From: Trueperaceae bacterium
GTDB taxonomy: Bacteria > Deinococcota > Deinococci > Deinococcales > Trueperaceae
Direction: 5' to 3'
Length of the DNA stretch: 64,000 nt
NCBI GenBank assembly: GCA_034520945.1
Contig: JAXHNB010000006.1
Location: forward strand, 648,180 to 712,179
A model generated the notes under the pieces. It saw nothing but the letters and a program-made list of their open reading frames with translations. It did not search any database and was not told the DNA's origin. Position numbers and translations under genes: made by a program. Positions 2,119-47,019 of the stretch are shown in pieces. Positions within the stretch are counted from its first letter, which is position 1. Every line of letters begins with the position of its first letter.

Positions 2119-2937
2119 TCAGTCCACTGCGCCCTTTACCAGGCCCGAGATGAATTGCCGCTGGAACGCCAGGTACACCACCACCAGCGGGGCCGCCACG
2201 ATGGTGGCTCCGGCGGCCAGCAAGGGAATGTCGGTGGTGTAGCGTCCCTGGAAAAAGGCGATCCCCACCGGCAGTGTCCGTAGGGCGTCGTCGCTCACCA
2301 TGACCAGCGGGATGAAGAACTCGTTCCAGTTCCATATGAACAAGAAGATGGTCAGCACCCCGAACGTGGGGCGGGCCAACGGCAGGAGGACGTGCCGAAA
2401 CACGGTCATGCGCCCCGCGCCGTCCAGTACCGCCGCGTCGATCAGCGCGTCGGGGAGGCTCTTGAAGGTCGCCCAGAGAAGATAGGTGCCGAACGGTAGG
2501 GACAGCGCGATCAAGGGCAGGATCATGGCGAGATAGGTGTTCAGCAGGCCGACCGATCGAAGGCCGTAGTACAGCGGGATGATCAGCCCCTCGTAGGGCA
2601 CCACAAGGCCCAGCAGCAGCACCGCGAACAGGGTGCGTCGGCCCGGTAGGGGCAGGAGTGCCAGGGCGTAGGCGCACATCGCGGCCAATGCGGGCGTGAC
2701 GACCACGACCGGCACGATCACGATCAGCGAGTTCAGGAAGTAGCGCCGAAGGTTGCCTTCCGTCCAGGCGCGCAGGTAGTTGCCCCACTGCGGGGCCTCG
2801 GGCAGTGTCAGCAGGCCCGCGCCCAACTCGTCCGGCGTCTTGAGGGACGTCAGAGCGATCAACAGGAACGGGATCAGGACGGCGGCGGTGAACAGGCTCA
2901 GGACGAGGTAGGCGAGGGTGCGATCAACGCGCATCAC
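2119..2937 (-). CDS. carbohydrate ABC transporter permease (MalG-like)
   Basis: 272 aa with a six-TM pattern and an EAA-type loop (ALIDAAVLDGAGRMTVFRHVLLPLARP). Its start overlaps the stop of the upstream permease. Confidence 0.85.
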   Translation of the reverse strand: MMRVDRTLAYLVLSLFTAAVLIPFLLIALTSLKTPDELGAGLLTLPEAPQWGNYLRAWTEGNLRRYFLNSLIVIVPVVVVTPALAAMCAYALALLPLPGRRTLFAVLLLGLVVPYEGLIIPLYYGLRSVGLLNTYLAMILPLIALSLPFGTYLLWATFKSLPDALIDAAVLDGAGRMTVFRHVLLPLARPTFGVLTIFLFIWNWNEFFIPLVMVSDDALRTLPVGIAFFQGRYTTDIPLLAAGATIVAAPLVVVYLAFQRQFISGLVKGAVD

Positions 2938-3857
2938 GAACTGCTCCGCTGCAGCCGTCGCAGCATCACCGTGACGAGAATGACCAGGATGGTGAGCACC
3001 ACCGCGATGGTCGAGGCGTAGCCGACCTCGCTGCGCTGGAACGCGCTGCGGTACAGGTACAGCGTGCCTACCAGGGTGCTATCGCCCGGCCCCCCGCGCG
3101 TGGTGACGAACACCAGGTCGAACACCTTTAGGGCGGTGACCAGCGTGAAGAAGGCGACGACCACGATCTCCCTGCGTAGGCCGGGCAGGGTCACGTGCAG
3201 AAGTTGTCTGAGCGCACTTGCCCCGTCGACGCGGGCGGCGTCGTAGAGCGTGGGATCGATGCGTTGCATGCCAGCGAAGAACACCGCCATGCAGAAGCCG
3301 TAGAAGTACCAGGAGGCGATCAGGCCTACGCTGGGCAACGCCCAGTCGAAGTCGCCGAGCCACGGGCGCGTGAGGGCGCCGAGCCCGATGGCGGCGAGGA
3401 ACGCGTTGATGGGTCCGTCGCCGGGGGCGTACATCCAGCGCCAGATGACGCCGATGAGCGCCATGGGAAGGATCTGCGGCAGGAACAGCAGCGCCCGGAA
3501 CGTGCCGCGCCCGCGCAGCCACGGTTGGTGCAGCACGGCCGCCAGCAGCAGCCCCAGCGTGATAGGGACCACCGTGTAGAACACGATGAACGCGGCGTTA
3601 TTCGCCAACGCGCGCCAGAACAAAGCGTCCCCGAGCAGGCGGCGATAGTTCGCTAGGCCGACCCAGCTCGCCTCCCCGAAGCCCGCCCAGTCGTGCAGGC
3701 TGTACCAGACCGACACGCCGGCGGGCAGCAGCACCAGCAACGCGTACACCGCGAAGCCGGGCAGGAAGATCGCCAGCCCGTGGTACCAACGATCGCCCGG
3801 CCGGGAGGGGATGTCCCCCTCCCGGCGGAGGTTGCGCGTGGGCGCCTCGTCAGTCAC
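2934..3857 (-). CDS. carbohydrate ABC transporter permease (MalF-like)
   Basis: Contains RWYHGLAIFLPGFAVYALLVL... and the loop DAARVDGASALRQLLHVTLPGLR. The GTG at 3857 overlaps the binding-protein stop. The rest of the 397-aa track ORF is upstream read-through. Confidence 0.8.
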   Translation of the reverse strand: MTDEAPTRNLRREGDIPSRPGDRWYHGLAIFLPGFAVYALLVLLPAGVSVWYSLHDWAGFGEASWVGLANYRRLLGDALFWRALANNAAFIVFYTVVPITLGLLLAAVLHQPWLRGRGTFRALLFLPQILPMALIGVIWRWMYAPGDGPINAFLAAIGLGALTRPWLGDFDWALPSVGLIASWYFYGFCMAVFFAGMQRIDPTLYDAARVDGASALRQLLHVTLPGLRREIVVVAFFTLVTALKVFDLVFVTTRGGPGDSTLVGTLYLYRSAFQRSEVGYASTIAVVLTILVILVTVMLRRLQRSSS

Positions 3858-5127
3858 GCGAGGCGAGGTAGTCCTGGTAGTCCCGGTCCAGGTCCTCGAC
3901 GAACTGCTGCGCGTCGATGCGGCCGGCCAACAGACGCTGCAGGCCGGCAGTGATCGTGTCGTAGAAGCTGGGGGTGGCCCAGTCGAGGTAGAAGCCGGTG
4001 GCGCCTGCCTCGTCGATACGGGTCCAGACGTCGTGAATGTCGGCCTGCAGGCTGCCGGGCTCCAGCATCGCTTCGTCGATCGGCAGGGCGGGCACGACGT
4101 CGGCCGCCATCCAGGCCTCGGCGGCACGCTCGGACATCATCCAGTCGATGTACGCGGCGGCCAGGTCGGGATGCGCGGTGGAGGCGGAGATGGAGAACGG
4201 GATGCCGGTTCCCACGATGTGGAGCGGCGTGGTGCCGGTGTTTTCCTCGAGGGGCGGCATGGCGAAGAAGCCGATGTCGGGGTTGTCGGCGAACAGGTCG
4301 GCCACCTCGCTGCCCGTGATCATCATGGCGCCCTCTCCGCGCGCGAAGGCGGCCCAGGAATCGTCGTAGCTGAGGCCGGCGTAGCCGTCGCTGAGGTAGC
4401 CGCTCTCGACCCAGTCGCGCACGATCTCGGCGGCGCGCAGGTTGCCGTCGGTGACCCAGCTTCCCCCGCGGCCGTAGATCAGGTCGCTGAGGTAGTCCAA
4501 CTCGACGAACAGGTGCTGGACGGCGCCGTAAAGGTGGATGGCGGGCCAACCGTCGCTGTTCCCGAAGGTGATCGGCGTGATGCCGGCCTCGTCCAACGCC
4601 TCGAGGTTGGCCTGAAACTCTTCGAACGTCTCGGGTACGTCAATGCCTGCCTCTTCGAAGTGCGCGCGGTTGTAGTACACGCCCACCACGAAGATCTCGG
4701 GCGAGACGCCGTACAGGTCGCCCCGGCCGAAGTCGCCGTCCTCGGTCCAGCGCTTACGTTCGAACAGCCGCTCGGAGTGTAGGTCCAACCAACCGTACTG
4801 CTCCGCGTACGCGTCCAGGGGCCGGATCAGGCCGCCCTGGACCATCTCGCCCATGTCGGGGGCGCCCTGGTTCACCATGGGCACGTCGGGACCTTCGCCG
4901 GAGCCGAGGGCCAGTTTGACGGTGACCTTGAGGTCGTCGAGGGGCCGGGAGGTCCGCTCGATGGTGACGCCCGGATTCCGTTCTTCGAACTCGGCGTTGA
5001 GCTGTTCGGCGACTTCGTTCTTCTTGCCTTGCGTCCACCAGTCCCACACTTCCAGCGTCTGTGCGTGGGCGAGGGAGAGGACCGCGAGGGCCGTGAGGGT
5101 CAGGATGGTATTGCGGAGTCGGTGCAT
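3850..5127 (-). CDS. extracellular sugar-binding protein (family 1) of the ABC transporter
   Basis: Signal peptide MHRLRNTILTLTALAVLSLAHAQ, with GGAAGGAG 6-13 nt upstream of the ATG at 5127. Confidence 0.85.
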   Translation of the reverse strand: MHRLRNTILTLTALAVLSLAHAQTLEVWDWWTQGKKNEVAEQLNAEFEERNPGVTIERTSRPLDDLKVTVKLALGSGEGPDVPMVNQGAPDMGEMVQGGLIRPLDAYAEQYGWLDLHSERLFERKRWTEDGDFGRGDLYGVSPEIFVVGVYYNRAHFEEAGIDVPETFEEFQANLEALDEAGITPITFGNSDGWPAIHLYGAVQHLFVELDYLSDLIYGRGGSWVTDGNLRAAEIVRDWVESGYLSDGYAGLSYDDSWAAFARGEGAMMITGSEVADLFADNPDIGFFAMPPLEENTGTTPLHIVGTGIPFSISASTAHPDLAAAYIDWMMSERAAEAWMAADVVPALPIDEAMLEPGSLQADIHDVWTRIDEAGATGFYLDWATPSFYDTITAGLQRLLAGRIDAQQFVEDLDRDYQDYLASRD

Positions 5128-5194
5128 GGGGCTCCTTCCGGGGAGCGGCGTGCCCGCGAGGGGCGTGCCATTGGGCGTGGGTCTGGTGCGGGCG

Positions 5195-6169
5195 TTACCC
5201 GCAGGGTGCATGGGGATCTCCCTCCTGCGCAGGAGCGTGGAGGCTCAGCGAGGGCCCATCCTGCGTGTGGGCGAGCGTGCCGAGCGCGGCGCCCAGGACG
5301 CCCGCGTCGGTGCCCGTCGCGGCCGGGAGGACGGGCACGTCTCGGCTTCCGGGGGTCCAGATGCCTTGCCGGGTGGCACGTACCAGTCGATTCCAGTAGC
5401 GTCCGCCCGAGGTGCCCAGCCCACCGCCGACGATCAGTACGGCGGGATCGAGGACGTCGACCAACCACGCGAGGGCGTCGCCCAGCGCGTCGGCGGCTTC
5501 GTCGAGGACGGCCTGGGCGTGTACGTCGCCGTTGGCCGCGAGGTGGGCGACGTCGCGTCCGTGCGTGGTGTCCTGGCCGCTGGCGAGGCGGTACCGGCGC
5601 ACGAGGGCCGGGCCGGAGGCGCGCGCCTCCAGCGAGCGGCTGGCGTCGCGCCGCACGCCGGTGCCCAGGACGCCGGCGCGTCCATGCGCTCCTGGGTACG
5701 GCGTGCCGTTCAGGACCAGGCAGCTGGAGATGCCCGTCCCAATGCTGACGTACACGAAGTCGTCATGCCCGCGTCCTGCACCGAAGATCGCTTCGGCCCG
5801 GGCGGCGGCGCGCACGTCCGCGTCGACGAAGGTGGGGGCGACCTCCGCCAGGCGCGCCCGTACGGGCAGGCCGGCCCAGCGAACGGTGTGCCCGGTGATG
5901 ACGTGGCCTCGGAGGTCGACGAGCTCCGCGACGCCCACCCCGATGCCGCGGAACGGCCGGTCCGGCGGCCGCGGCAACGACAGCAGGTGGCGGGCCAACG
6001 CGAGGGTGTCGTCCAGCACCTCGCGTCCTTGGCGCTCCGGCCGCGTGGGTTCCTCGCGTCGCGCCCGCAACGCGCCTGTGGCCAGGTCAACCAGCGCGGC
6101 GGCGGTCTTGGTGCCGCCCACGTCGATGCCGATGGCGAGGCCTGCGTCGTGGGGCACGGAGGACGTCAT
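5195..6169 (-). CDS. ROK-family sugar kinase
   Basis: N-terminal GIDVGGTKTAAALVD ATP-binding motif and ROK-like core (GAGRGHDDFVYVSIGTGISS). Confidence 0.85.
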   Translation of the reverse strand: MTSSVPHDAGLAIGIDVGGTKTAAALVDLATGALRARREEPTRPERQGREVLDDTLALARHLLSLPRPPDRPFRGIGVGVAELVDLRGHVITGHTVRWAGLPVRARLAEVAPTFVDADVRAAARAEAIFGAGRGHDDFVYVSIGTGISSCLVLNGTPYPGAHGRAGVLGTGVRRDASRSLEARASGPALVRRYRLASGQDTTHGRDVAHLAANGDVHAQAVLDEAADALGDALAWLVDVLDPAVLIVGGGLGTSGGRYWNRLVRATRQGIWTPGSRDVPVLPAATGTDAGVLGAALGTLAHTQDGPSLSLHAPAQEGDPHAPCG

Positions 6170-6176
6170 GCTCGTT

Positions 6177-7043
6177 TCAGGCGTCCTCGGGCGGGGCGTA
6201 GCGTGGCCCGACGCCGAACAGGACCTCGACCGGCGTTCCGGTCATGTTGTAGATCGCGTGGGGCTCGCCGTGCGGGACGAAGAAGCCGTCCCGTGGCGCC
6301 AGCTCGAACCACTTGGGCACGTCGGGCTTGCCTGGGGCGTGAATCTGAGGATCGCCCTCGAGGACGTACATGCACTTGTCCCCGGCGTGGCGCATGGCGT
6401 CGGTGTGCTGGCCCGGCAGGAGGCGGACCTTGCCGGCGGTGAGGTGTTCCGTCGCCGCCAACAGGCCTACGAGTACGCGATGCTCGCTACCTTCGAGCCG
6501 CCACATCATGTCGTCCTCGCGGAGGTGCCGGATGGTGTGCCCGGCACGGCGGGCCGCGTCCTCCATCGGGAAGCGCGTCATCCATTCGTCCTGGCCGTAA
6601 CGGACCTCGGGAAGGTTCTCCTGCTGGCGCGCGTAGCTGCCCGACGTCCCCTGGGATGGCGGGGGCGAGAAGTACTCCAGGACCCGCAGCCGCTCGTTGC
6701 TGAGGTTGTGGACGTGGTGCCAGGTGTCGCGACGGAAGAACGCTGCCTGTCCGGGACGGACGCGGTGCACCTCGCCGGTTTGCGGGTTGGCGATCACCAT
6801 CTCGCCACTGAGGACGTAGAGCACCTCGTCGGCGGCAAAGATGGTGCGAAACGAATCGGAGTGCGTGAACGATCCCATCGGCGGCACGCCGAACAGCAAC
6901 TGGTGGATTTCCTGGGTGGAGGCGTAGATCCAGTCGGAGACCTGGCCGGCTTCAGGATCGCCCCACAGGTGACGGGTGACGTCGCGGTAGGGGATGTGGG
7001 TGGGCGCATCGAAGGTCGGGCGGGGGGAGGGGGCGTAGCTCAT
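6177..7043 (-). CDS. bicupin-domain protein
   Basis: Two cupin-like units (VLYVLSGEMVIANPQTGEVHRVRPGQAAFF and CMYVLEGDPQIHAPG...FFVPHGEPHAIYN). Confidence 0.7.
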   Translation of the reverse strand: MSYAPSPRPTFDAPTHIPYRDVTRHLWGDPEAGQVSDWIYASTQEIHQLLFGVPPMGSFTHSDSFRTIFAADEVLYVLSGEMVIANPQTGEVHRVRPGQAAFFRRDTWHHVHNLSNERLRVLEYFSPPPSQGTSGSYARQQENLPEVRYGQDEWMTRFPMEDAARRAGHTIRHLREDDMMWRLEGSEHRVLVGLLAATEHLTAGKVRLLPGQHTDAMRHAGDKCMYVLEGDPQIHAPGKPDVPKWFELAPRDGFFVPHGEPHAIYNMTGTPVEVLFGVGPRYAPPEDA

Positions 7044-7129
7044 ACGGGGGCTCCTCGGGGGTGGGTGCGCAGTGGGGGTACGCGGTGCGTCAGGGCGAAC
7101 TTGGCGTCAGGGGGTCGGGCGCGGCGGAC

Positions 7130-7936
7130 TCAGGACGGCGCGTCCCGGCGGGCTTGTGACAGGACGACGGCGATGCCCGGCGCTGCTGCCTCGGCTTCGC
7201 TTCGCGCGTGGCGGTCGCTGGCCACGGCGAGCTTGAAGCGGTCACCGCGGTAGCGCACCTCGAAATACTCGGTTGGGAGGTCGTCTTCGCTGTAGCTGAT
7301 CCCTTCGACCGCCAGCAGTCCCGTCCCTTCCGGGACGTCGAAAGCGTCGGCCTCCTCGACGCTCGCGGTGGTGGCGGCGATCGTCTGCTCCGCGCGTTGC
7401 AGGGGTAGGCCGTAGCGTTCCTCCAGTAGCCGGTAGAGCGACTGGTGTGCCAGGTCCTGATTCTCGAGCCCCCGGCAGAGCCGGTGCGGCAGCCAACTGC
7501 TCTCCAGCGCGACGGGCTCCCCGTTGACCCGGCGGAGGCGCGCGACCCGCACCACCGTTTCGTCGGGACGCAGCGCCAGCGCGGTCGCAACGTGGGGCGG
7601 GGAGGTCGCGGTGTCTTGCCGTAGCACGTCCGAGCTGACCGTGCCGTCCTGCTGAAGCATCGTTTCGGTGAAGCCCATGAGGTTGACCGCGTCGAAGGTC
7701 AGTTTGGGTTCGGCCACGAAGGTGCCTGCGCCCTGCCGGACCGTCAGCGTGCCGTCCTGCACCAGTCGGGCCAGGGCCTGACGGAGCGTCATGCGGCTGA
7801 TCCCGAATTCCTCGGCCAGTTCGCGCTCGGAGGGTAGCCGCGCGCCGGGCGCCCAGGCGCCGGTCCGGATGCGACGCCGGATCTCACGGACGACCTGGTG
7901 GTAGAGGGGGACGGGGCTGGACTTGCGTAGGGTCAT
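7130..7936 (-). CDS. GntR/HutC-family transcriptional regulator (DasR/NagR-like)
   Basis: MTLRKSSPVPLYHQVVREIRRRI...LPSERELAEEFGISRMTLRQALARLVQDG wHTH followed by a UTRA-like C-terminal domain. Confidence 0.85.
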   Translation of the reverse strand: MTLRKSSPVPLYHQVVREIRRRIRTGAWAPGARLPSERELAEEFGISRMTLRQALARLVQDGTLTVRQGAGTFVAEPKLTFDAVNLMGFTETMLQQDGTVSSDVLRQDTATSPPHVATALALRPDETVVRVARLRRVNGEPVALESSWLPHRLCRGLENQDLAHQSLYRLLEERYGLPLQRAEQTIAATTASVEEADAFDVPEGTGLLAVEGISYSEDDLPTEYFEVRYRGDRFKLAVASDRHARSEAEAAAPGIAVVLSQARRDAPS

Positions 7937-8017
7937 GCGGCCCCTTTCGGCGGGCGTGCGGGCTGGGATGCGCGGCGTGTTCGCGCCACGGGGTCCTCGA
8001 GGCACTTGGGAGCTCTG

Positions 8018-8031
8018 GAGGTCTAGACCTC
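8018..8031. promoter_or_regulatory. dre-like operator (perfect palindrome GAGGTCTAGACCTC)
   Basis: The core GGTCTAGACC equals the core of DasR/NagR (HutC family) operators. It lies about 85 nt upstream of the HutC gene that heads the minus-strand operon. Confidence 0.6.
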
Positions 8032-8322
8032 TAGAACCGTACCCTGGACTGCTGCGCAGCGCAAGTCCCTCGATGCAATCGTGGTCTGTGACGCATGGGG
8101 TCAACGCGCGTGGGGGACGCCCAGACGCCCTCGAACGATCCTGCGTGCCGGCGCGCCGCGGCCAAGCACCGGCAAGGCGCATGGCGCGGCGCGACCCGCC
8201 GGGGAGGACGCCGCGGCCAAGGCGTAGCATGGCCGTATGGTTTTGATCGCACGACCGGAAGGAGCGCTTCGAGCAAGGGTTGCACCGCGCCCGACGTCCG
8301 CGGGGCCGACCGGTGGGCGGCC

Positions 8323-9201
8323 GTGAGCCGCACGGTCCTCGTCCAGGTGGTGGGCCCACCCGGCGCAGGCAAGACCACGCTGATCGAGCGGTTGGTGCGT
8401 TCGACGCGAAACGAGATGCTCGCGGCCGTGCGCGTGGTGGAGGAGGAAGGCGGCGACACCGTGGCGCGCGACGAGGATGGCGCGGAGGTGGCGTCGTGGC
8501 GGGCGGCCGGCGCGCTCCTCCCCGAGCGGGTGCGGCTGCCGGCGGGTCATTTCGGCGGTGTGCACGCAGCGCTCCAGGCGTGCGGCGCCGGACCCTCCGT
8601 GGCCGACGTGGTGCTCATCGAAGGGGGACCCGTCACGTCCCGTGCGGTGGATGTCGTGGTGTTCGTGACCCGTGCGTTGCAGTCGGAGGCGTCGCTCACG
8701 GTGGACGAAGGCCGCGAAATCGGCCGCATGGACGGCGGGGAGGCGCTGAGCCTGATGTTGGGGCTCACCCCGCCCAGCGAAGACGAGGACGAAGAGGCGG
8801 GGATGCCCGGCGAGGGTGACGCGGTCGATGACGACGACGTCGAGGTCGTGGAAACCTACGAGATCCCCGAACCCGCCGCGCAACGCATACGCGAGCTGCT
8901 GGAGCACGGCCATCCGATCGTGCAGCGCGGCCGCTGGCTCAGGGCGGGCTACGAGCCGCTGGTCCACGCGCAGGTCATCGTCGTAGGGCGTGGCGCGGAC
9001 GGGGATCGCGTTCTGGGCGAACGCACCAAGGGCATGATCGAAGCGGCGCTCGAGGACGAGGAGTTGCGGCGCACCTATCCCGAGCTGGGATCCGTGCACC
9101 GACGCACGATCCTCGCGGCCGACCTGGCGGAGGCGGGCAATGCGGAAGCGCGCAAGGCGGTCGAGGCCATCAAACGCCGTTGGCGGCGGGCGGCGTGGTG
9201 A
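8323..9201 (+). CDS. MobB-like P-loop NTPase with an acidic linker and an unknown C-terminal domain
   Basis: Walker A VVGPPGAGKTTLIERLV, a later DVVLIEGG motif as in MobB, then EDEDEEAGMPGEGDAVDDDDVEVVE. The start is uncertain (GTG 8323 or upstream). Confidence 0.5.
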   Translation: MSRTVLVQVVGPPGAGKTTLIERLVRSTRNEMLAAVRVVEEEGGDTVARDEDGAEVASWRAAGALLPERVRLPAGHFGGVHAALQACGAGPSVADVVLIEGGPVTSRAVDVVVFVTRALQSEASLTVDEGREIGRMDGGEALSLMLGLTPPSEDEDEEAGMPGEGDAVDDDDVEVVETYEIPEPAAQRIRELLEHGHPIVQRGRWLRAGYEPLVHAQVIVVGRGADGDRVLGERTKGMIEAALEDEELRRTYPELGSVHRRTILAADLAEAGNAEARKAVEAIKRRWRRAAW

Positions 9202-9259
9202 TGGCGTTCGGGGCGCCGGCACGATGTTCCCTGTCCAACGTGGAGGGGTCGGTTCGTAC

Positions 9260-37853: not shown

Positions 37854-38657
37854 TCAGGCCCCGCGCGTTCGCTGCAGCAGCTCGTGGAAGGCCGCGAACG
37901 AGCTCTGCCGCGTGCCGAAGTCGGGCGTCTCGGGCCAGGGGCCGGTCCCGCCGAGCACAAGCTCGGCGCCCTGCTCGCGGCAGGCGTCGCCGATGCGCTG
38001 GGTGGCCTCGGCCAGGCCGGCGACGTCGTTCGACGCCGACGATGCGGAGAGCGCCACCATCACGGGCGCCTCGGTGCGAATGAAGCGTTCGACGTCGGCG
38101 ACGGGGGTGCGTCCCCCCAGCCACACCACCGGCAGGCCCACTTCGCGGACGCACAACTCGGCCAGGGAAAGGCCCAGCGTGTGGTCGTCATCGCCGAGGC
38201 ATGCCAGCAGCACCGGCCGCCCCTCGGGTGCCGCGGGCAGCGCGTCCCCGATGCGCGCCAGCCCCCGCGCCAGCACCTCGGAGGCGCGATGCTCCTCGCC
38301 GATACCGAGGCGGCCGTCCTGCCACGCGTCGCCCATGGCGCCCAGAACGCTCCCAAGCTCGTCGGCCAACGCGTGCCATGAGCCCAGGCGAGCGCGGGCC
38401 TCCAGCAGCCGCGCGTCGACCTCGTGCCTGCGGCCCGTGACCAACACCTCGATCCAGGCCTCGACCGGGTGCAGCCCTGCGGTGGCGTGACGGTCCTGGA
38501 GCCACTGCTCCAGCGCGCTGCGGGTGAACCGGCGGTGCCCACCGGGGGTGCGGACCGAAGGCAGCCCTTCCTGTTCCGCCCAGCGCTTGACGGTCGACGC
38601 GGAGACGCCTGCGATCGCCGCCGCCTGTTTCGGGGTGAGCATGCCTTCGGCCGCCAT
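37854..38657 (-). CDS. MerR-family, B12-binding-domain regulator (LitR/CarH-like)
   Basis: MerR HTH LTPKQAAAIAGVSASTVKRWAEQEGL and the B12 motif GDDDHTLGL (DxHxxG). Confidence 0.8.
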   Translation of the reverse strand: MAAEGMLTPKQAAAIAGVSASTVKRWAEQEGLPSVRTPGGHRRFTRSALEQWLQDRHATAGLHPVEAWIEVLVTGRRHEVDARLLEARARLGSWHALADELGSVLGAMGDAWQDGRLGIGEEHRASEVLARGLARIGDALPAAPEGRPVLLACLGDDDHTLGLSLAELCVREVGLPVVWLGGRTPVADVERFIRTEAPVMVALSASSASNDVAGLAEATQRIGDACREQGAELVLGGTGPWPETPDFGTRQSSFAAFHELLQRTRGA

Positions 38658-38743
38658 CGGGCTACGATACCTCGAATCGGGCGGTTCTGGTGAGGTGAAT
38701 CCGACGATTTCGCCCACCGCCGTCGGGTACGGGAAGGGGAGAC

Positions 38744-39229
38744 ATGCAGGGTCGACATCGCCTCGTACGCCACCAGTGGGTGCCGCACCCACCCGATACG
38801 GTGTTCGCGTTCTTTTCAGACGCGCACAACCTGGAGCGGCTCACGCCGACGTTCCTTCGCCTGGACATCCGTACGCCACAGCCGATCGAGATGCGCTCCG
38901 GCACGCGTATCGAGTACGTGATGCGCCTGTTCGGCCTGCCCGTGCGGTGGCGCACCCGCATCGACGAATGGCGGCCGGGTGAGGGCTTCGTGGACGTGCA
39001 GGAGTCGGGGCCGTACGCGTACTGGCGCCATGCCCATCGCTTCGAACCGGTGGACGGGGGCACCCGGCTCGTCGACGAGGTCGAGTACACGCTGCCGTTC
39101 GGATGGCTGGGACGACTGGCCCATGCCCTGGTGGTGCGGCATGTCCTGCGGCGCATCTTCGATTTCCGCGCTGCGGCGATCCAACGGCAGTACGGGGACG
39201 AGGAGGCACTTCGGCCCGCGCGGTCCTGA
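38744..39229 (+). CDS. SRPBCC-family protein
   Basis: 161 aa; VFAFFSDAHNLERLTP...WRTRIDEWRPGEGFVDVQESGPYAYWRHAHRFEP. Confidence 0.75.
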   Translation: MQGRHRLVRHQWVPHPPDTVFAFFSDAHNLERLTPTFLRLDIRTPQPIEMRSGTRIEYVMRLFGLPVRWRTRIDEWRPGEGFVDVQESGPYAYWRHAHRFEPVDGGTRLVDEVEYTLPFGWLGRLAHALVVRHVLRRIFDFRAAAIQRQYGDEEALRPARS

Positions 39230-41064: not shown

Positions 41065-41787
41065 TCACCGTGCACGCACGTCCCACCGCGTCGCGATCCC
41101 GAGCGGTTTCTGATCGCTCCGCCCGTGCTCGGTGATCAGCACCGCCTCGAGTTGCGGGTTCTCGGCGAAGCGGTGCAGCACCTCCTCGGCGGGCGTGTCG
41201 CGCGCGGCGAAGGCGTGGTTCTCACGTGGTTCCTCGTAGTCGAGGAGCTCGGCGACGGTGCGTGCCTCGAAGTCCACCAAGCTCACGTCCTCGTGTTCCA
41301 TGACGTGCGCCAGCCAGTGCGCGACGCCGTTGCCGGTGACGAGGCCGCGGAAGGTGCCGTCGTGGTAGGCGGGGAACTGGGTGTAGGCGCGGCCCTCCAC
41401 CTCACGCAGCGCCTCCAGGACGGACTGCGTCACCTCCAGCGAAGCGACCTCGCGCGCGAACGCCTCGTCGGCGCGGGTCGGCCTTAGAAGCCGGTCGCGA
41501 ACGGCTTCGATCTCCTCCAGGACGTGCGAACTGGGGATGGAGAGGTACTCGTAGGGCTGATAGCGCTCGTGCACGATCACGTTGCGCAGGTCCGCGAACG
41601 CCAGCATCGCTTCGAAGTCGCGCTCCCACCAACGATGCGCCTTCACGAACCGGTGGGCGGCGGTGCGGAAGCTCTCGTGCCGGTCCACGCCGGTGCGCTC
41701 CTTGAGCGCCTGCTCGACGGTGTTGAAGGCCGTCAGGAACGCTTCGGCGCGGGCGTTCGCCTCGTCACGGTCGGGTGTCTGCTCCAT
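41065..41787 (-). CDS. HEPN-like (RNxxxH) N-terminal domain fused to a CBS pair
   Basis: AFADLRNVIVHERY (R-x4-H) in a helical N-terminal domain, then two CBS-like units (VTQSVLEALREVEGRAYTQFPAYHDGTFRGLVT; TPAEEVLHRFAENPQLEAVLITEHG...PLGIAT). Confidence 0.55.
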   Translation of the reverse strand: MEQTPDRDEANARAEAFLTAFNTVEQALKERTGVDRHESFRTAAHRFVKAHRWWERDFEAMLAFADLRNVIVHERYQPYEYLSIPSSHVLEEIEAVRDRLLRPTRADEAFAREVASLEVTQSVLEALREVEGRAYTQFPAYHDGTFRGLVTGNGVAHWLAHVMEHEDVSLVDFEARTVAELLDYEEPRENHAFAARDTPAEEVLHRFAENPQLEAVLITEHGRSDQKPLGIATRWDVRAR

Positions 41788-41973
41788 GCTGCCGTCCACC
41801 GTACGACGGAAGCGTAGTGGGCGGTTCGACACGGACGTTGCTGACACATCATTGCGCTGCGTCAGATACCACCATCGATCCATCCGTGGTCGAGCTGGCA
41901 GCGTGTGACCATCGCACGGTCGAACGCACCATGTGGATCGAAGCGCTGGGAGTGCTCGCGGAGCCGCAGTGGC

Positions 41974-42290
41974 TCAACGGTCCGGCAGCCACGAGTGCGG
42001 CATGTCATGCGGACCTTCCTTCCCGAACGCATGGCGCACTCGAGCCCTCACCCTACGCTGCCGCAACGAGAACGCCGCGGGGATGAGCGCTTCAGCCGGT
42101 ACGAAAGAAGTCGCGCTGGCGCAGGCGGCCAGCCTGGCCGTGGAAGACGGCCGCGCGATCCTGAGGCCGATTGAGTTCAAAGGCGACCGGAGGCGGGTGC
42201 GGTTCGAATGCGCGTGGTCGTCAGGCCCGCACGTCGAAGATGCCCTACGAACGTGTCGCTGTCGAGGGCTTCGTCGACGAATACGTGCAT
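41974..42290 (-). pseudogene. degraded DUF5615/VapC45-like PIN-like toxin
   Basis: MHVFVDEALDSDTFVGHLRRAG opens like DUF5615, then the reading frame is lost. Confidence 0.3.
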
Positions 42291-42664
42291 CCATGTTTGG
42301 GGCCCCGCTTCGAACATGATCGCGTCGCGAACGTGCTGGATTGCCAAGTCATGGTCGTGCGCTACGTACGAACTCGAGGTCCTCGCCATCGTCGACGCGG
42401 GCGGCGATCATGGCCGTCGGTACGCCACTGCAGAACGCGGAGAAGCTGCAGCTCGATCAGGGTCGTGAACGACACGCCCCCTGCGAGTTCGGCGTGGAGC
42501 ACGCGCTCGAAGCGACCCCTGGGTCCGTATGAGCCTACCGACCCGCCCTTGATCCAGCAGCGGACCGTTGTGGGGGGAACCCGTACGATCCTTGCTGCTT
42601 CGGCGAACGCGTAGAACGGCAGCTGAAGAGGAGCCTCGTTCGCGTAGAACACGCGGGCTTCCAT
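42290..42664 (-). pseudogene. degraded VapB45-type HTH antitoxin
   Basis: FYAFAEAARIVRVPPTTVRCWIKG...VSFTTLIELQLLRVLQ, then GVPTAMIAARVDDGEDLEF and HDLAIQHVRDAIMFEAG in two other frames. Shorter than typical family members. Confidence 0.35.
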
Positions 42665-42919
42665 ATGCGGCGAGCGCAGCAGGCGCCTCTGCGGGCATCC
42701 AGGTGCATCACTTCTCAGTGAAGCGCAGCTGCGCGGTTCCTGAACCGCGCCAAGCGATCGGGCTTCGGGGTGGACGCCGTCAATTCGCTCTCGGGCGAAC
42801 GGGGTCGGACGTGATGCCCCCGAGTTTTCTTCGGCCGAGTGAGCCAGGCCGGATCATGAGTGAGCCAACGAGCGTTGACAGGTGGCATGTGCCCTTTCAT
42901 GCCAGCGACGGCCGTCGGC

Positions 42920-43393
42920 TCACAACCGCTCGTCGAACCAGAACGGCGCGCCGGCACCGATGACGACCTCTTCGAAGTCCGGGTGCACCGGGTTCAACAG
43001 CAGGTTGTGCTCTTGGGGGACCAGCACGCTGGGGACGAGCAGCGCCACGCTGGCCGCCTGCTCCAGCCAGGCGTCGCCGATGGCGCGGGCGCCAGGGCTG
43101 TTGGGCCGGACACGCCAGTCGCTCGGCAGGTCGTCGCGTCTCAGCATCAGCACCAGCTCGGCGGGGATCTCGACCGCGAAGGCGACGTATTCGCGTTGGA
43201 AGCGGCTTCGTTCCGCGTGGGCCAGCGTTTCGAGGGCGGCCAGGGAGAGGTGCTCGCTGGCGTAGACGAGGGGCCTGCCGGCGCTGTTCCAGCGCCCGCC
43301 GTAGCGGCGGGCCCCTTCGCCCGAGAATGCCGCGCCTGTGGTGCCGTAGGCGGGCCGCACCAGCCGCCACGCCTGCTGGGGCTCGTCGGTCAT
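42920..43393 (-). CDS. RES-domain toxin
   Basis: GARRYGGRWNSAGRPLVYASEHLSLAALE...LLVPSVLVP. Confidence 0.85.
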   Translation of the reverse strand: MTDEPQQAWRLVRPAYGTTGAAFSGEGARRYGGRWNSAGRPLVYASEHLSLAALETLAHAERSRFQREYVAFAVEIPAELVLMLRRDDLPSDWRVRPNSPGARAIGDAWLEQAASVALLVPSVLVPQEHNLLLNPVHPDFEEVVIGAGAPFWFDERL

Positions 43394-44636: not shown

Positions 44637-45620
44637 TCAGGATTGCGCTTGCGCCGGCGGACGCCCAGAAAGCGGAAACGTCGCCCCGAACTCGTTCCCT
44701 TGCCCGCTGGCGTCATCGCGCCATGCCCGCGCCCACGCCGTCCCTCCCGCCGCGTCCACGATCGAGCGAACCACGTACAGCCCCAGGCCCCGCCAGCCTG
44801 TTCGCGACGCATCGCGTGCGTGCGGGTCCAACAACGCCTCCAAGCGCTCGGCGGAGAGCGGTTCGCCTTCGTCCCGCACCGCCAGGTACGCTTGGCCGTC
44901 CTTCGCGACCACGGCCACCCGGACGTCCGCATGGTCGGGACCATGCACCGCGGCGTTCTCCAATAGGTTGACCAGCACCTGCAGCACCTTGTCGGGATCG
45001 GCCCACACCACGAGGTCGGCCACGTCCTGGTGCACCGTGACGCCGTGCTGCTCGAACGTCGGCGCAAGGACCGCGCACGCGCGCGCGACCACCTCGCGGA
45101 CCGGCACGCTGCGCTCGCGCGGCGGGGCGACGTCGACCGTGAGGTCGTTCAGGAGGCGCACCAGGCGTTGCGCTTCGCCGTGGGCGCGTTCGAGTAGCTG
45201 GGCACGCTCCGCCGCCGGCAGGTCGTCGTACTCGAGCGCTTCCAGGGTGGAGGTGATGGTGGTGACGGGCGTGCGGAGTTCGTGCGACACCACCGCCAGC
45301 ATCTCGCGGGCGTCGATCTCCGCCTGCCGTGCCTCGCTCACGTCCCGCAGCGCCAGGCCGGCCGGGATCGGGACGACGAGCAGGTGCCGGCCCCCCACCT
45401 TCAGTTCGGCACGTGCTTGGTCGTGCCACACGCGTTCGATGCGGTGATCCCGCACGACGGCGATCAACGCCTTGCCGACCGCCCAGCTCGCGTCGACGCC
45501 GAGCAGGGCCGCCGCGGCCGCGTTGACCCGCGCGACGCGGCCGCTCTCGAGCAGAACGACGCCTTCCGCCAGCGCATCGATCCAGGCGTCAGGCGCCCGC
45601 GTGGGGATCGACCATCCTGT
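44637..45620 (-). CDS. phoR: soluble PAS histidine kinase (PhoR-like); start unresolved
   Basis: PAS-like ALAEGVVLLESGRVARVNAAAAALLG, H-box SHELRTPVTTI, N/G boxes. No TM segment and no canonical start codon after the upstream stop. Confidence 0.7.
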   Translation of the reverse strand, partial: TGWSIPTRAPDAWIDALAEGVVLLESGRVARVNAAAAALLGVDASWAVGKALIAVVRDHRIERVWHDQARAELKVGGRHLLVVPIPAGLALRDVSEARQAEIDAREMLAVVSHELRTPVTTITSTLEALEYDDLPAAERAQLLERAHGEAQRLVRLLNDLTVDVAPPRERSVPVREVVARACAVLAPTFEQHGVTVHQDVADLVVWADPDKVLQVLVNLLENAAVHGPDHADVRVAVVAKDGQAYLAVRDEGEPLSAERLEALLDPHARDASRTGWRGLGLYVVRSIVDAAGGTAWARAWRDDASGQGNEFGATFPLSGRPPAQAQS

Positions 45621-46299
45621 AGCCCCGGCCTCGAACCGTCTCGATCCAGCCCTTGCCGATCCGGGCGCGGAGCTGCGCCACGTGCTGATCGACGGTGCGC
45701 TCGGTGCCCACGAAGTCCATGCCCCACGCCCCGTCCAGCAGCGCGGCACGTGCGAACACGCGCCCAGGATGCTCGATCATGTGTGCGAGGAGGTCGAACT
45801 CACGGCGCGTGAGGGCGAGTTCCTCGCCTCCACGAAAGGCGCGTCCCGAGGCCGTGTCGACGACGAGGTCGCCGAGCCGGAACCTGAGCGCGGGCGGGGC
45901 GCGCCGAAGCAGCGCCCGCACGCGCGCCACCAGTTCCGGGGCGCTGAACGGCTTCACCAGGTAGTCGTCCGCCCCCGCCTCCAGCCCGCCCACGCGGTCG
46001 CGTTCGGTGGCGCGGGCCGTCAACATCAGGACCGGCACCTGACGGTCCTCCGGGTCGGCCCGCATCCAGCGAAGCAGCGCGTCGCCGCTCTGGCCCGGAA
46101 GCATGCGATCCAGCACGACCGCGTCGGCGTGGTCGACCCGCCGCCAGGCCTCCTCGGCGTTCTCCGCTTCCGTGACCCGAAATCCGCCGCGCGTCAGGTG
46201 GAGCGATACCAGTCTGCGCACCGACGCGTCGTCCTCGACGACCAACACCCGCCCGGGCGTCCCATCGCTGCTGGTCGGGTCGTGGCAAGCATCAGCCAT
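45589..46299 (-). CDS. phoB: OmpR/PhoB-family response regulator
   Basis: RVLVVEDDASV..., VVLDRMLPGQSG, LMLTARA, GADDYLVKPF, and a winged-helix C-terminus. Confidence 0.9.
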   Translation of the reverse strand: MADACHDPTSSDGTPGRVLVVEDDASVRRLVSLHLTRGGFRVTEAENAEEAWRRVDHADAVVLDRMLPGQSGDALLRWMRADPEDRQVPVLMLTARATERDRVGGLEAGADDYLVKPFSAPELVARVRALLRRAPPALRFRLGDLVVDTASGRAFRGGEELALTRREFDLLAHMIEHPGRVFARAALLDGAWGMDFVGTERTVDQHVAQLRARIGKGWIETVRGRGYRMVDPHAGA

Positions 46300-46300
46300 G

Positions 46301-46337
46301 GTGTCATCTTAGCGTCGCTTCGTCATGGCCGCGTCAG
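46301..46337 (+). promoter_or_regulatory. Pho-box-like heptamer repeats
   Basis: GTGTCAT-ctta-GCGTCGC followed by tCGTCAT-ggcc-GCGTCAG. The first box ends 62 nt before the phoU ATG. Confidence 0.45.
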
Positions 46338-46380
46338 CCGGCGTTCTGCCGCATGCGCGCCCGTGCTAGCGTCGCCTTCG

Positions 46381-47019
46381 ATGACGCCCTTCGAGCAGGA
46401 TCTCCAAGAGCTCACGGACCAGACGGTGCGGATGCTGAGCCTGGTCCGCGAGGCGGTCGAGTTGGCGCGGCGTTCGCTGGTGGGCGCGGACCCCGAGGCG
46501 GCGGTTCGCGGCCAGCGCGTCGAAGACGAGATCAACGACCTGCAGGATCAGTTGGAGAGCCGCATTCTCAGCGTGATTGCGCGCCGTCAGCCCGCCGCGC
46601 GCGACCTCCGCCTGTTGGGCGCGACCTACCGGTCGCTGGCGGACATCGAGCGGGCCGGCGATTACGCCTTTCACGTATCCCGCGCCGGCGCCGAGATGGC
46701 CAGCGAACCGCCGCTCAAGAAGTACCTCGACATGGACCGGATCCTGGCGATCGAGATCGCCATGATCGACGAGACCGCGCGAGCATTGGCCGAGAGCGAC
46801 ACGGAGGCGGCACGGCGTGGACACGCCATGGACGAGGAGGTGGATCAGCTCTACGAGCAGATCCAGCGCGAGCTCATCACCTACATGATCGAGGATCCAC
46901 GCACCATCACCAAGGCGACGCGCCTGTTGGGGGTGGCCCGCCACCTGGAGCGCTTGGGCGACCACCTGGAGAACGTCGACGAGCACATCCTGTTCTGGTT
47001 GACCGGACGGCGCGGCTGA
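46381..47019 (+). CDS. phoU: phosphate signalling protein PhoU
   Basis: Two PhoU repeats (DEINDLQDQLESRIL...ADIERAGDYA; DEEVDQLYEQIQ...RHLERLGDHLENV). Confidence 0.9.
   Translation: MTPFEQDLQELTDQTVRMLSLVREAVELARRSLVGADPEAAVRGQRVEDEINDLQDQLESRILSVIARRQPAARDLRLLGATYRSLADIERAGDYAFHVSRAGAEMASEPPLKKYLDMDRILAIEIAMIDETARALAESDTEAARRGHAMDEEVDQLYEQIQRELITYMIEDPRTITKATRLLGVARHLERLGDHLENVDEHILFWLTGRRG

What the first reader, a model, noticed from the sequence alone, without database searches (positions are those of the whole stretch)
41065..41787. HEPN-like (R-x4-H) domain fused to a CBS pair inside a toxin-antitoxin cluster
The N-terminal roughly 100 aa are helical and contain ADLRNVIVHE, an RN-xxx-H motif of the kind that forms HEPN RNase active sites. 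The C-terminal 140 aa read as two CBS units.

CBS pairs bind adenosyl ligands such as AMP/ATP, SAM and cyclic dinucleotides. The fusion could therefore be a ligand-gated RNase.

The gene is solitary, with no partner ORF. It sits between vapBC and a degraded VapB45/VapC45-like pair, 1.2 kb from RES-Xre.
Basis: partly seen in the sequence, partly recalled or inferred. Interest (0 to 1): 0.65.

Follow-up and report, generated by a model that had tools for sequence, protein, structure and literature searches.

The report
Solitary HEPN RNase fused to CBS sensor
This intact 240-residue gene joins a probable RNA-cutting (HEPN) domain to a nucleotide-sensing CBS pair, and it belongs to a large family annotated only as "CBS domain protein", whose likely job is RNA cleavage switched by a small adenine-containing molecule.

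Summary
Window 41065-41787 (minus strand) encodes an intact 240-aa protein under purifying selection (dN/dS 0.16 against a 91%-identical relative).

The C-terminal 135 residues are a clear CBS pair. The N-terminal 104 residues are modelled with high confidence as four helices. An RNxxxH motif sits at the end of helix 3, where HEPN RNases carry their catalytic Rx4-6H. In 110 diverse homologues, R is kept in 109, N in 109 and H in all 110.

Every match to a known HEPN family is below threshold. However, only HEPN families recur among the weak Pfam hits, and only HEPN structures give TM of 0.45 or more. I therefore accept HEPN at about 0.8 to 0.85.

The family is large: 987 clusters at 50% identity with E <= 1e-10. 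It has no conserved partner gene. Here it sits in a toxin-antitoxin island, but elsewhere it is often a stable chromosomal gene, for example E. faecalis EF1724.

HEPN+CBS fusions were predicted in 2013. A CBS-then-HEPN protein, DS-11, was shown in 2026 to defend E. coli against phage. This family has the opposite domain order and a different HEPN subtype, so I file it as a new variant of a known kind. RNase activity, ligand and role are inferred, not shown.

The parts
41065..41787 (-). Whole gene: 240-aa HEPN-CBS protein, with the stop codon at 41065-41067
   Evidence: ORF. Full-length homologues. Alignment A1. dN/dS 0.16 against L054.
41476..41787 (-). N-terminal HEPN-like domain, residues 1-104, with four helices (5-32, 40-50, 52-73, 87-101)
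   Evidence: AF2 models. Foldseek best TM only to HepT/HEPN structures. Recurrent sub-threshold HEPN Pfam hits. hhalign to a HepT alignment gives P = 0.008.
41569..41586 (-). RNVIVH, residues 68-73: the putative catalytic Rx4H motif, at the C-terminal end of helix 3
   Evidence: Sequence. Kept in 109 (R), 109 (N) and 110 (H) of 110 homologues. Aligned onto the LRNIAVH of HepT.
41293..41475 (-). CBS motif 1, about residues 105-165. It includes Y135 (F or Y in 90 of 110), P139, G148 and T151.
   Evidence: Profile against PDB. hhalign to the DS-11 CBS pair puts Y135 opposite DS-11 Y157. Residue counts.
41068..41280 (-). CBS motif 2, about residues 170-240, with the full ribose-binding signature G230-x-x-T233-x-x-D236
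   Evidence: Pfam CBS at residues 192-238. G230 is kept in 99, T233 in 100 and D236 in 105 of 110.

Best explanation
The gene encodes a self-contained, partner-less ribonuclease of the HEPN superfamily. A C-terminal Bateman module (a CBS pair) controls its activity in cis.

**Proposed mechanism.**
1. The N-terminal four-helix domain carries the catalytic R68-N69-x3-H73 at the end of helix 3.
2. As in other HEPN RNases, two copies must pair so that their motifs form one composite, metal-independent RNA-cleaving site.
3. The CBS pair has one canonical adenosine/ribose site (G230, T233, D236, plus an aromatic residue at 135). It binds an adenine-containing ligand such as AMP, ADP, ATP, Ap4A or SAM.
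4. By changing how two protomers pack, ligand binding switches the HEPN site on or off.
5. The CBS pair thus plays the restraining role that an antitoxin plays for HepT. This would explain why no partner gene is needed.

The outcome is RNA cleavage and growth arrest, or RNA turnover, when the cell's nucleotide state changes through stress, starvation or phage infection.

**Shown here.** The domain architecture, motif invariance, predicted fold, family size, absence of a partner gene and purifying selection.

**Inferred.** HEPN homology (from convergent but sub-threshold evidence), RNase activity, dimerisation, the identity of the ligand, the direction of gating and the physiological role.
For: **Intact, selected gene.** 240 aa, dN/dS 0.16.

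**CBS pair.**
- T151 is T in 101 and S in 8 of 110.
- T233 is kept in 100 and D236 in 105 of 110.
- Position 135 is F or Y in 90 of 110.
- Y135 aligns with DS-11 Y157, which is required for defence.

**HEPN domain.**
- R is kept in 109, N in 109 and H in 110 of 110.
- The motif lies at the end of helix 3, before the loop to helix 4. This is the HEPN-defining position (PMC3710099).
- Foldseek on the isolated domain gives TM 0.48-0.55 only to HepT and HEPN structures. Most other helical bundles give 0.2-0.3, and none exceeds 0.32.
- A profile against PDB gives HepT among the top hits, with the motifs in register.
- Of 61 N-domains, 21 hit HepT-like, 11 RiboL-PSP-HEPN, 7 Apea-HEPN and 3 Cthe2314-HEPN. 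DUF6548 (7) and DUF3644 (5) also recur. Every other listed family is a singleton.
- hhalign against a HepT alignment gives P = 0.008.

**No conserved neighbour.** None in 42 independent loci or in eight annotated contexts.

**Precedent.** A single protein with CBS and HEPN domains (DS-11) protects E. coli from phage and loses protection with R330A, H335A or Y157A (PMC13092281). HEPN+CBS fusions were predicted to couple nucleotide sensing to RNA stability (PMC3710099).
Against: - No match to any HEPN family reaches significance: best Pfam E = 3e-4, below the gathering scores; Foldseek E = 0.9-3; hmmsearch against PDB E = 0.3-0.6.
- Helices 2 and 3 are separated by one residue in the model, so the first hairpin is atypical.
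- hhalign finds no similarity to the DS-11 HEPN domain (probability 0.7%). The DS-11 precedent is therefore an analogy, not homology.
- No activity, ligand or dimer data exist for this family, and I could not run a multimer prediction.
- In many lineages the gene is a stable chromosomal gene next to housekeeping genes. In E. faecalis, EF1724 lies between fhs and lspA. That fits a routine RNA-metabolism role at least as well as a toxin or defence role.
- CBS1 lacks the ribose-binding Asp, so only one ligand site is canonical.
Confidence: 0.6

Rival explanations
1. This rival keeps the same enzyme but proposes a different role. The protein would be a housekeeping or stress-responsive RNA-processing nuclease tuned to adenylate or phosphate status. 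It would not be a toxin or defence module, and its place in a toxin-antitoxin island here would be incidental.
For: - Synteny is stable within lineages and sits beside core genes: Enterococcus faecalis fhs-EF1724-lspA-rluD-pyrR; Acholeplasmataceae, where the gene overlaps a Sua5/TsaC-like gene by 4 nt; Bacteroidota PBP-RR-gene; Limnochordia/Clostridiales M28 peptidase-gene.
- EF1724 is present in all E. faecalis strains compared. It is among the genes shared by more than 90% of enterococcal species, and it scored 'Fitness Important' in Tn-seq (PMC7701990).
- The family is rare on mobile elements: 5 of 72,556 plasmids. The 3 'phage' records are unannotated; the one I examined, OR846607.1, is chromosomal E. 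faecalis DNA.
- Pst/Pho genes lie within 5 kb in three separate lineages.
Against: - The Tn-seq phenotype may be a polar effect on the essential lspA, which overlaps EF1724 by 4 nt.
- The window copy and at least two others (P0020, P0042) sit in toxin-antitoxin or defence islands.
- The Pho association is weak: 3 of about 25 lineages, against roughly 0.7 expected by my rough estimate.
- DS-11 shows that the same domain logic works in defence.
Confidence: 0.3
2. The N-terminal domain is not catalytic. It would be a helical dimerisation, RNA-binding or nucleotide-binding module, like the inactive HEPN domains of Swt1 or the KNTase C-terminal domain. The protein would then be a nucleotide-sensing adaptor or regulator.
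For: - All HEPN matches are sub-threshold.
- Inactive or binding-only HEPN domains exist (PMC3710099).
- No activity data exist for this family.
Against: - Inactive HEPN domains typically lose the motif. Here R, N and H are kept in 109-110 of 110 sequences that are only 20-56% identical to the window protein, which is what a catalytic site would show.
- P85, in the loop after the motif, is also invariant.
Confidence: 0.12
3. The gene is the toxin of a two-gene toxin-antitoxin module of the HepT/MntA kind. Its antitoxin would have been lost or not recognised, for example among the degraded genes upstream or as a small ORF or RNA in the 390-nt upstream gap.
For: - The gene lies in a toxin-antitoxin island next to degraded remnants.
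- HepT is its best sequence and structure match.
Against: - No MNT (nucleotidyltransferase) gene lies nearby.
- No neighbour family is conserved across 42 loci.
- The closest relative, L054, lacks the upstream remnants altogether and still keeps the gene under purifying selection.
- The Tyr two residues after His that MntA AMPylates in HepT is R75 in the window protein (H-E-R). The 110-sequence consensus reads VHER.
- An upstream 112-aa ORF in L001 looks like a kinase-family gene fragment (by eye) and is not conserved across loci.
Confidence: 0.05
4. The protein is a transcriptional regulator with C-terminal CBS domains, as some source annotations say ('predicted transcriptional regulator').
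For: JGI gives this name to several homologues. HTH-CBS regulators do exist.
Against: - No HTH family is detected in the N-domain: one HTH_5 hit at E = 0.035 among 61 members.
- The model has a 28-residue first helix and no helix-turn-helix unit.
Confidence: 0.03

Closest known systems
DS-11 (WP_000257686.1), the single-gene CBS+HEPN anti-phage system of E. coli from DefensePredictor (PMC13092281)
   Same: - One polypeptide with a CBS pair and an Rx4H (R-N-x3-H) HEPN domain, and no partner gene.
- An aromatic residue in CBS1 at the position of Y157 (Y135 here).
- The proposed logic is the same: an adenine-derivative sensor gates a HEPN nuclease.
   Different: - DS-11 is 365 aa, ordered N-terminal extension, then CBS pair, then C-terminal HEPN. 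This protein is 240 aa, with HEPN first and the CBS pair last.
- The DS-11 authors' HHpred assigns its HEPN domain to the SAV2148-like family. The domain here is closest to HepT and RiboL-PSP types.
- hhalign detects no relation between the two HEPN domains.
- DS-11 has a tested defence phenotype. This family has none.
HepT toxin of HepT/MntA (HEPN/MNT, type VII toxin-antitoxin), e.g. Shewanella SO_3166 (PDB 5yep, 6m6u, 6m6w, 7bxo)
   Same: - It is the best structural match (TM 0.5-0.55) and ties for the best sequence-profile match.
- The LRNxxVH motif is in the same register.
- Both are small HEPN domains with the motif at the end of helix 3.
   Different: - There is no MntA partner.
- The Tyr that MntA AMPylates in HepT (RX4HXY) is replaced, giving H-E-R.
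- The domain is fused to a CBS pair.
- Pfam PF01934 scores fall below its threshold.
HEPN+CBS (with or without HD) fusions noted by Anantharaman et al. 2013 (PMC3710099; examples alr3009 and gi 118580987)
   Same: It is the same predicted idea: a CBS domain senses nucleotides and controls HEPN-mediated effects on RNA stability.
   Different: - Those examples are listed under the Swt1/Abi2-like HEPN group, and some carry an HD domain.
- I could not retrieve their sequences, so it is untested whether any of them belongs to this 240-aa family.
Stand-alone CBS-pair proteins (MJ1225, MJ0100, AcuB, Rv2626c/HRP1)
   Same: The C-terminal half matches them strongly.
   Different: They lack the N-terminal RNxxxH helical domain.

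Membership tests
HEPN superfamily | Conserved Rx4-6H motif with a polar residue (N, D or H) directly after the R | tested here: met
   R68-N69-V-I-V-H73. R is kept in 109, N in 109 and H in 110 of 110 diverse homologues. The motif is in 181 of 183 relatives.
HEPN superfamily | [quoted passage not shown] | tested here: met
   The AF2 model (pLDDT 89-91) has helices 5-32, 40-50, 52-73 and 87-101, and the motif is at residues 68-73. The criterion is taken from PMC3710099. This is a prediction, not a solved structure. Helices 2 and 3 are nearly continuous.
HEPN superfamily | Statistically significant sequence or structure match to an established HEPN family | tested here: inconclusive
   - Pfam: best E = 3e-4 (RiboL-PSP) and 3.7e-4 (HepT-like), below the gathering scores. 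HEPN families are the main recurrent hits (21, 11, 7 and 3 of 61), alongside two DUFs (7 and 5).
- Foldseek: E = 0.9-3, TM 0.48-0.55.
- hmmsearch against PDB: HepT at E = 0.33.
- hhalign against a HepT alignment: P = 0.008.
HEPN superfamily | Metal-independent endoribonuclease activity from a dimeric composite site | not testable with these tools
   This needs biochemistry. No multimer prediction tool was available.
HepT/MntA type VII toxin-antitoxin | An adjacent MNT-type nucleotidyltransferase antitoxin gene | tested here: not met
   None lies in the window neighbourhood. No neighbour family is conserved in 42 loci.
HepT/MntA type VII toxin-antitoxin | RX4HXY motif, whose Tyr is AMPylated by MntA (recalled from the HepT/MntA literature) | tested here: not met
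   The window protein reads H73-E74-R75. The 110-sequence consensus reads VHER.
CBS pair (Bateman module) | Two tandem CBS motifs forming one module | tested here: met
   Pfam CBS. All 43 members hit CBS. The profile aligns positions 108-235 to the first CBS pair of MJ1225, E = 8.8e-25. Foldseek gives probability 1.0.
CBS pair (Bateman module) | Ribose-phosphate binding signature G-h-h-T/S-x-x-D/N (recalled from the CBS literature) | tested here: met
   CBS2 has G230 (99), T233 (100) and D236 (105) of 110. CBS1 keeps G148 and T151 but has G or T in place of Asp. One canonical site is therefore expected.
CBS pair (Bateman module) | Binding of an adenosyl ligand | not testable with these tools
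   This needs DSF, ITC or a co-crystal.
DS-11-type CBS-HEPN defence protein | A single gene encoding both a CBS pair and a catalytic HEPN domain | tested here: met
   DS-11 is described.
DS-11-type CBS-HEPN defence protein | Same domain order (N-extension, CBS pair, HEPN) and a homologous HEPN domain | tested here: not met
   The order is reversed. hhalign of 61 N-domains against the HEPN region of 117 DS-11 homologues gives probability 0.7%. Only the CBS parts align, at probability 94.8%.
DS-11-type CBS-HEPN defence protein | Anti-phage activity that depends on the HEPN R and H and on the CBS aromatic residue | not testable with these tools
   This needs phage challenge assays.
HTH-CBS transcriptional regulators (the name some sources give to homologues) | An N-terminal helix-turn-helix DNA-binding domain | tested here: not met
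   No HTH family hits the window N-domain at E <= 10. One marginal HTH_5 hit occurs among 61 members. The model has no HTH unit.

The most novel reading that the evidence does not exclude
This would be the founding, unannotated member set of a widespread family of antitoxin-free, metabolite-gated HEPN RNases. The family has about 1,000 clusters at 50% identity, across Deinococcota, Chloroflexota, Bacillota, Mycoplasmatota, Bacteroidota and Caldisericota.

In many lineages, including Enterococcus faecalis (EF1724) and apparently Listeria, it would be a core chromosomal gene. It would couple adenylate or phosphate status directly to RNA cleavage. That would make it a general bacterial 'energy-state RNase' rather than a mobile toxin. 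Copies in toxin-antitoxin or defence islands, such as this one, would be secondary recruitments.
Probability: 0.25. Interest if true: 0.7.

Novelty: new variant of a known kind. Interest (0 to 1): 0.5.

Why it matters
**An unannotated nuclease family.** If the reading is right, hundreds of genomes carry a probable nuclease annotated only as "CBS domain-containing protein". They include the core genome of E. faecalis.

**A minimal case of a wider principle.** A toxic RNase would be held in check by a fused small-molecule sensor instead of an antitoxin. DS-11 showed in 2026 that this logic works in phage defence, but its ligand is unknown.

**A tractable system.** This compact 240-aa family has the reverse domain order and a different HEPN subtype. 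It offers an independent way to find the ligand and the gating mechanism, and to ask whether such enzymes serve defence, stress physiology or both.

**A gap in annotation.** The HEPN part is invisible to Pfam, NCBIfam and PADLOC.

Tried and rejected
- **Whole-protein Foldseek against PDB** returned only CBS proteins. I therefore modelled and searched the N-domain alone.
- **Foldseek of the N-domain against viral structures** gave nothing meaningful.
- **Pfam on the window's N-domain alone** gave no hit at E <= 10. NCBIfam and PADLOC gave nothing relevant.
- **hhalign of the N-domain profile against the DS-11 HEPN region**, first as a single sequence and then as a 117-sequence alignment, showed no relation.
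- **An upstream 112-aa ORF overlapping the P0012 gene** was considered as a partner. I rejected it because it looks like a fragment of a ROK-type kinase gene (by eye) and is not conserved.
- **All-against-all clustering of ORFs within 4 kb in 42 loci** found no partner family conserved across lineages. It found only lineage-specific synteny and generic families such as ABC ATPases and two-component systems.
- **The search for related loci with the diverse alignment A3** failed because it had no conserved stretch. A1 worked.
- **Sequencing runs:** only metagenome DNA runs (salt pan, sediment) hold this sequence. No RNA run was listed, so there is no expression evidence.
- **Promoter and terminator scan** gave nothing informative on the gene's strand.
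- **The 'phage' hits** do not show a phage-borne copy. All three records are unannotated, and the one I examined (OR846607.1) is chromosomal E. faecalis DNA.
- **The EF1724 Tn-seq phenotype** is not taken as proof of function, because it may be a polar effect on lspA.
- **The 2013 HEPN paper's supplement** held no sequences for its CBS examples.
Full report
**1. What is there**

Window 41065-41787 on the minus strand is an intact ORF. The ATG at 41787 gives a 240-aa protein. This start matches the closest relatives, P0001 (91% identical) and P0319 from NCBI, both 240 aa.

Against the orthologue on contig L054, the gene is 91% identical in DNA and has dN/dS = 0.16. It is therefore a functional gene under purifying selection, unlike the decayed ORFs just upstream of it.

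**2. The C-terminal half is a CBS pair**

- Pfam CBS matches at E = 3.6e-7, and all 43 first-round family members hit CBS.
- A family profile aligns positions 108-235 to a complete CBS pair of MJ1225, with whole-sequence E = 8.8e-25.
- Foldseek on the full model (pLDDT 91, pTM 0.83) matches many solved Bateman modules at probability 1.0, including AcuB, IMPDH, AMPK-gamma and MJ0100.

CBS2 carries the canonical ribose-binding signature. G230 is kept in 99, T233 in 100 and D236 in 105 of 110 diverse homologues. CBS1 keeps G148 and T151 but has no Asp. One canonical adenosyl site is therefore expected. That this signature binds ribose rests on general knowledge of CBS domains, not on a test made here.

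**3. The N-terminal 104 residues**

Pfam, NCBIfam and PADLOC do not recognise this part in the window protein. The case for HEPN rests on five independent lines of evidence.

(a) *Motif invariance.* In 110 homologues that are 20-56% identical to the window protein, R68 is kept in 109, N69 in 109 and H73 in all 110. P85, in the following loop, is also invariant. RNxxxH is present in 181 of 183 retrieved relatives.

(b) *Position in the fold.* AlphaFold2 models have pLDDT 89 for the domain alone and 91 in the full-length protein. They give helices 5-32, 40-50, 52-73 and 87-101. The motif occupies the last turns of helix 3, before a 13-residue loop to helix 4. Anantharaman et al. [quoted passage not shown]

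(c) *Fold search.* With the isolated domain, no PDB match is significant (E = 0.5-10). Every hit with TM of 0.45 or more is a HEPN protein: HepT of Shewanella (5yep, 6m6u, 6m6w, 7bxo; TM 0.48-0.55) and T. thermophilus 1wwp (0.51). Most other four-helix bundles score 0.2-0.3, and none exceeds 0.32.

(d) *Sequence profiles.* hmmsearch of two N-domain profiles against PDB puts HepT first or tied for first (E = 0.33-0.64). It aligns LRNvIVHe onto the catalytic LRNIAVHD of HepT. hhalign against a small HepT alignment gives P = 0.008 in the same register.

(e) *Member-wise Pfam scan.* Among 61 N-domains, the recurrent families are:

| Pfam family | Members hit (of 61) | Best E |
|---|---|---|
| HepT-like | 21 | 3.7e-4 |
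| RiboL-PSP-HEPN | 11 | 3e-4 |
| DUF6548 | 7 | 2.5e-5 |
| Apea-HEPN | 7 | 0.0056 |
| DUF3644 | 5 | 0.005 |
| Cthe2314-HEPN | 3 | 6.9e-4 |

Swt1-HEPN and HEPN (PF05168) each have one hit. Every other listed family is a singleton. Where I looked at individual members, the hits cover up to 55 residues around the motif, not just the motif itself.

None of these lines is significant alone. Lines (d) and (e) are partly driven by the motif that defines the superfamily. Taken together I rate HEPN membership at about 0.8 to 0.85.

The domain is not a HepT-family member in the narrow sense:
- its scores are below the Pfam threshold;
- the residue two positions after His is Arg, not the Tyr that MntA AMPylates in HepT (that point is from my knowledge of the HepT/MntA literature);
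- there is no MNT gene nearby.

**4. The family**

A search of 1.84 billion representative proteins with the N-domain profile found 1,655 clusters at E <= 1e-3 and 987 at E <= 1e-10. Most are 225-260 aa, which is the same two-domain architecture.

Genome hits span Trueperaceae, Anaerolineae, Bacillota (Ureibacillus, Alkalihalobacterium, Desemzia, Lacticigenium, Limnochordia, Clostridiales), Acholeplasmataceae, Caldisericales and Bacteroidota. tblastn adds Enterococcus faecalis and Listeria monocytogenes, plus a few plasmids from Chlorohelix, Rhodococcus and Corynebacterium.

Sources name these proteins only "CBS domain-containing protein", or wrongly "predicted transcriptional regulator". The window itself comes from a salt-pan metagenome organism, and its nearest relatives are Trueperaceae.

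**5. Genomic context**

In the window, the gene is convergent with vapBC (PIN E = 1.7e-11). It lies 1,133 nt from a RES-Xre pair (RES E = 7.6e-35). The gap holds two short remnants. One has weak HTH_17 and HTH_66 hits. The other starts like a DUF5615 PIN-like protein by eye only, with no Pfam hit.

The closest relative keeps Xre-RES-gene-vapC-vapB but lacks the remnants, and it has an extra 378-aa gene further out. The island is therefore in flux, while this gene is retained.

Across the family there is no conserved partner. Eight annotated contexts differ completely. Clustering of all ORFs within 4 kb in 42 non-redundant loci found no partner family conserved across lineages.

Some copies sit in defence islands:
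- P0020 lies between UvrD-like genes and GmrSD.
- P0042 lies among helicase, HNH and restriction genes.

Many others show lineage-stable synteny with ordinary genes:
- Acholeplasmataceae, where the gene overlaps a Sua5/TsaC-like gene by 4 nt;
- Limnochordia and Clostridiales, directly after an M28 peptidase;
- Bacteroidota, after a PBP and a response regulator;
- Alkalihalobacterium, between pstCAB-phoU plus a Na/Pi transporter on one side and phnCDE on the other.

In E. faecalis the member lies between fhs and lspA-rluD-pyrR-pyrP. It is UniProt Q834D7. By gene order and gene length it is EF1724:

| Locus tag | Annotation | Length (nt) |
|---|---|---|
| EF1723 | Lipoprotein signal peptidase | 485 |
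| EF1724 | CBS domain protein | 704 |
| EF1725 | Formate-tetrahydrofolate ligase | 1,670 |

(PMC7701990 supplement.)

That Tn-seq study scored EF1724 "Fitness Important" and lists it among genus-core genes. Because EF1724 overlaps the essential lspA by 4 nt, the phenotype may be a polar effect.

**6. How it most likely works**

*Shown:* a HEPN-like domain with an invariant catalytic-type motif is fused to a Bateman module with one canonical adenosyl site. There is no partner gene, and the gene is under purifying selection.

*Inferred from the established behaviour of the two domain classes:* HEPN RNases cut RNA through a composite site made by two Rx4-6H motifs in a dimer. Bateman modules dimerise and change their packing on binding an adenosyl ligand.

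The simplest mechanism is that ligand occupancy of the CBS pair sets the geometry of a homodimer, and so switches the HEPN site. The CBS pair would act as an in-cis substitute for an antitoxin.

The direction of gating, the ligand and the RNA targets are unknown. I put 0.6 on this mechanism as a whole.

The physiological role is less certain. The family-wide contexts favour a chromosomal stress or RNA-metabolism function at least as much as defence. The window copy's place in a variable toxin-antitoxin island fits an accessory, toxin-like use.

**7. Comparison with what is known**

- *2013 prediction.* Anantharaman et al. noted HEPN domains fused to CBS, sometimes with HD, and proposed nucleotide-responsive control of RNA stability. 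They listed these fusions under the Swt1/Abi2-like group.
- *2026 validation.* DefensePredictor validated DS-11 (WP_000257686.1, 365 aa), a single protein with a CBS pair (residues 134-241) followed by a C-terminal HEPN. Defence was lost with R330A, H335A or Y157A, and the ligand is unknown.
- *This family.* It shares the logic and an aromatic residue at the Y157 position (Y135). It has the opposite domain order and no N-terminal extension. Its HEPN domain shows no detectable relation to that of DS-11. It looks like an independent fusion of the same two domain classes.
- *Literature.* No paper in the searchable library describes this 240-aa architecture.

I therefore file it as a new variant of a known kind.

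**8. Verdict**

- The idea of a CBS-gated HEPN nuclease is already in the literature, so this is not categorically new.
- The family is large, unannotated as a nuclease, architecturally distinct from the one validated example, and present in the core genome of well-studied bacteria.

Interest is 0.5.

Noticed in passing
window 41788-42920, compared with L054 3362-3644: The closest relative (91% aa identity) has only 282 nt between RES and the HEPN-CBS gene. The window has 1,133 nt there, holding the degraded HTH_66-like and DUF5615-like remnants (42177-42664). L054 also has an extra 378-aa gene between DUF302 and Xre that the window lacks. The island is an indel hot spot.
   Followed up: partly
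L017 and L018 (JAXHLW010000013.1, Trueperaceae MAG): Two 99.3%-identical copies of the family gene lie 11.5 kb apart on one contig, with an IS110 transposase nearby. This is either a recent segmental duplication or an assembly artefact.
   Followed up: partly
L053 (OR846607.1, 'Enterococcus phage Efs 1-1-1') 2266-9245: This 'phage' record (flagged UNVERIFIED_ORG) carries core E. faecalis chromosomal genes: fhs, EF1724, lspA, rluD, pyrR and pyrP. The family hit in the phage collection is therefore not evidence of a phage-borne copy.
   Followed up: yes
L053 4992-5696 (E. faecalis EF1724, UniProt Q834D7): The family member is a genus-core gene scored 'Fitness Important' in Tn-seq (PMC7701990). 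Its stop overlaps the start of the essential lspA by 4 nt, so the phenotype may be polar.
   Followed up: partly
window 44637-47019; L029, L032 and L037; L024 and L025: Phosphate-regulon genes lie within 5 kb of the family gene in three unrelated lineages. The window has a phoR-like kinase (44637-45749), a phoB-like regulator (45589-46299) and a PhoU-like region (45472-47019). Alkalihalobacterium has pstCAB-phoU, a Na/Pi cotransporter and phnCDE. Trueperaceae has pstC/A. My rough estimate is 3 lineages observed against about 0.7 expected, which is weak. Most names come from reading the sequences, not from a Pfam scan.
   Followed up: partly
L041 5791-7067; L042-L047 (e.g. L042 5807-7491): In a Caldisericales MAG, an HD-domain gene overlaps the start of the family gene, which recalls the HEPN+CBS+HD fusions of the 2013 survey. 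In six Acholeplasmataceae and Bacillota MAGs, the family gene overlaps a Sua5/TsaC-like gene by 4 nt, which looks like an operon.
   Followed up: no
window 37854-38792 (-): This 312-aa ORF looks like a MerR-type HTH fused to a B12-binding-like domain (a CarH-like light or B12 regulator). That is read from the translation only and was not scanned.
   Followed up: no
DefensePredictor Table S10 (PMC13092281), WP_001532511.1: An E. coli 263-aa 'CBS domain-containing protein' is listed as a predicted novel defence gene (log-odds about 5). Its length is close to this family's. I could not obtain its sequence to test whether it is a member.
   Followed up: partly
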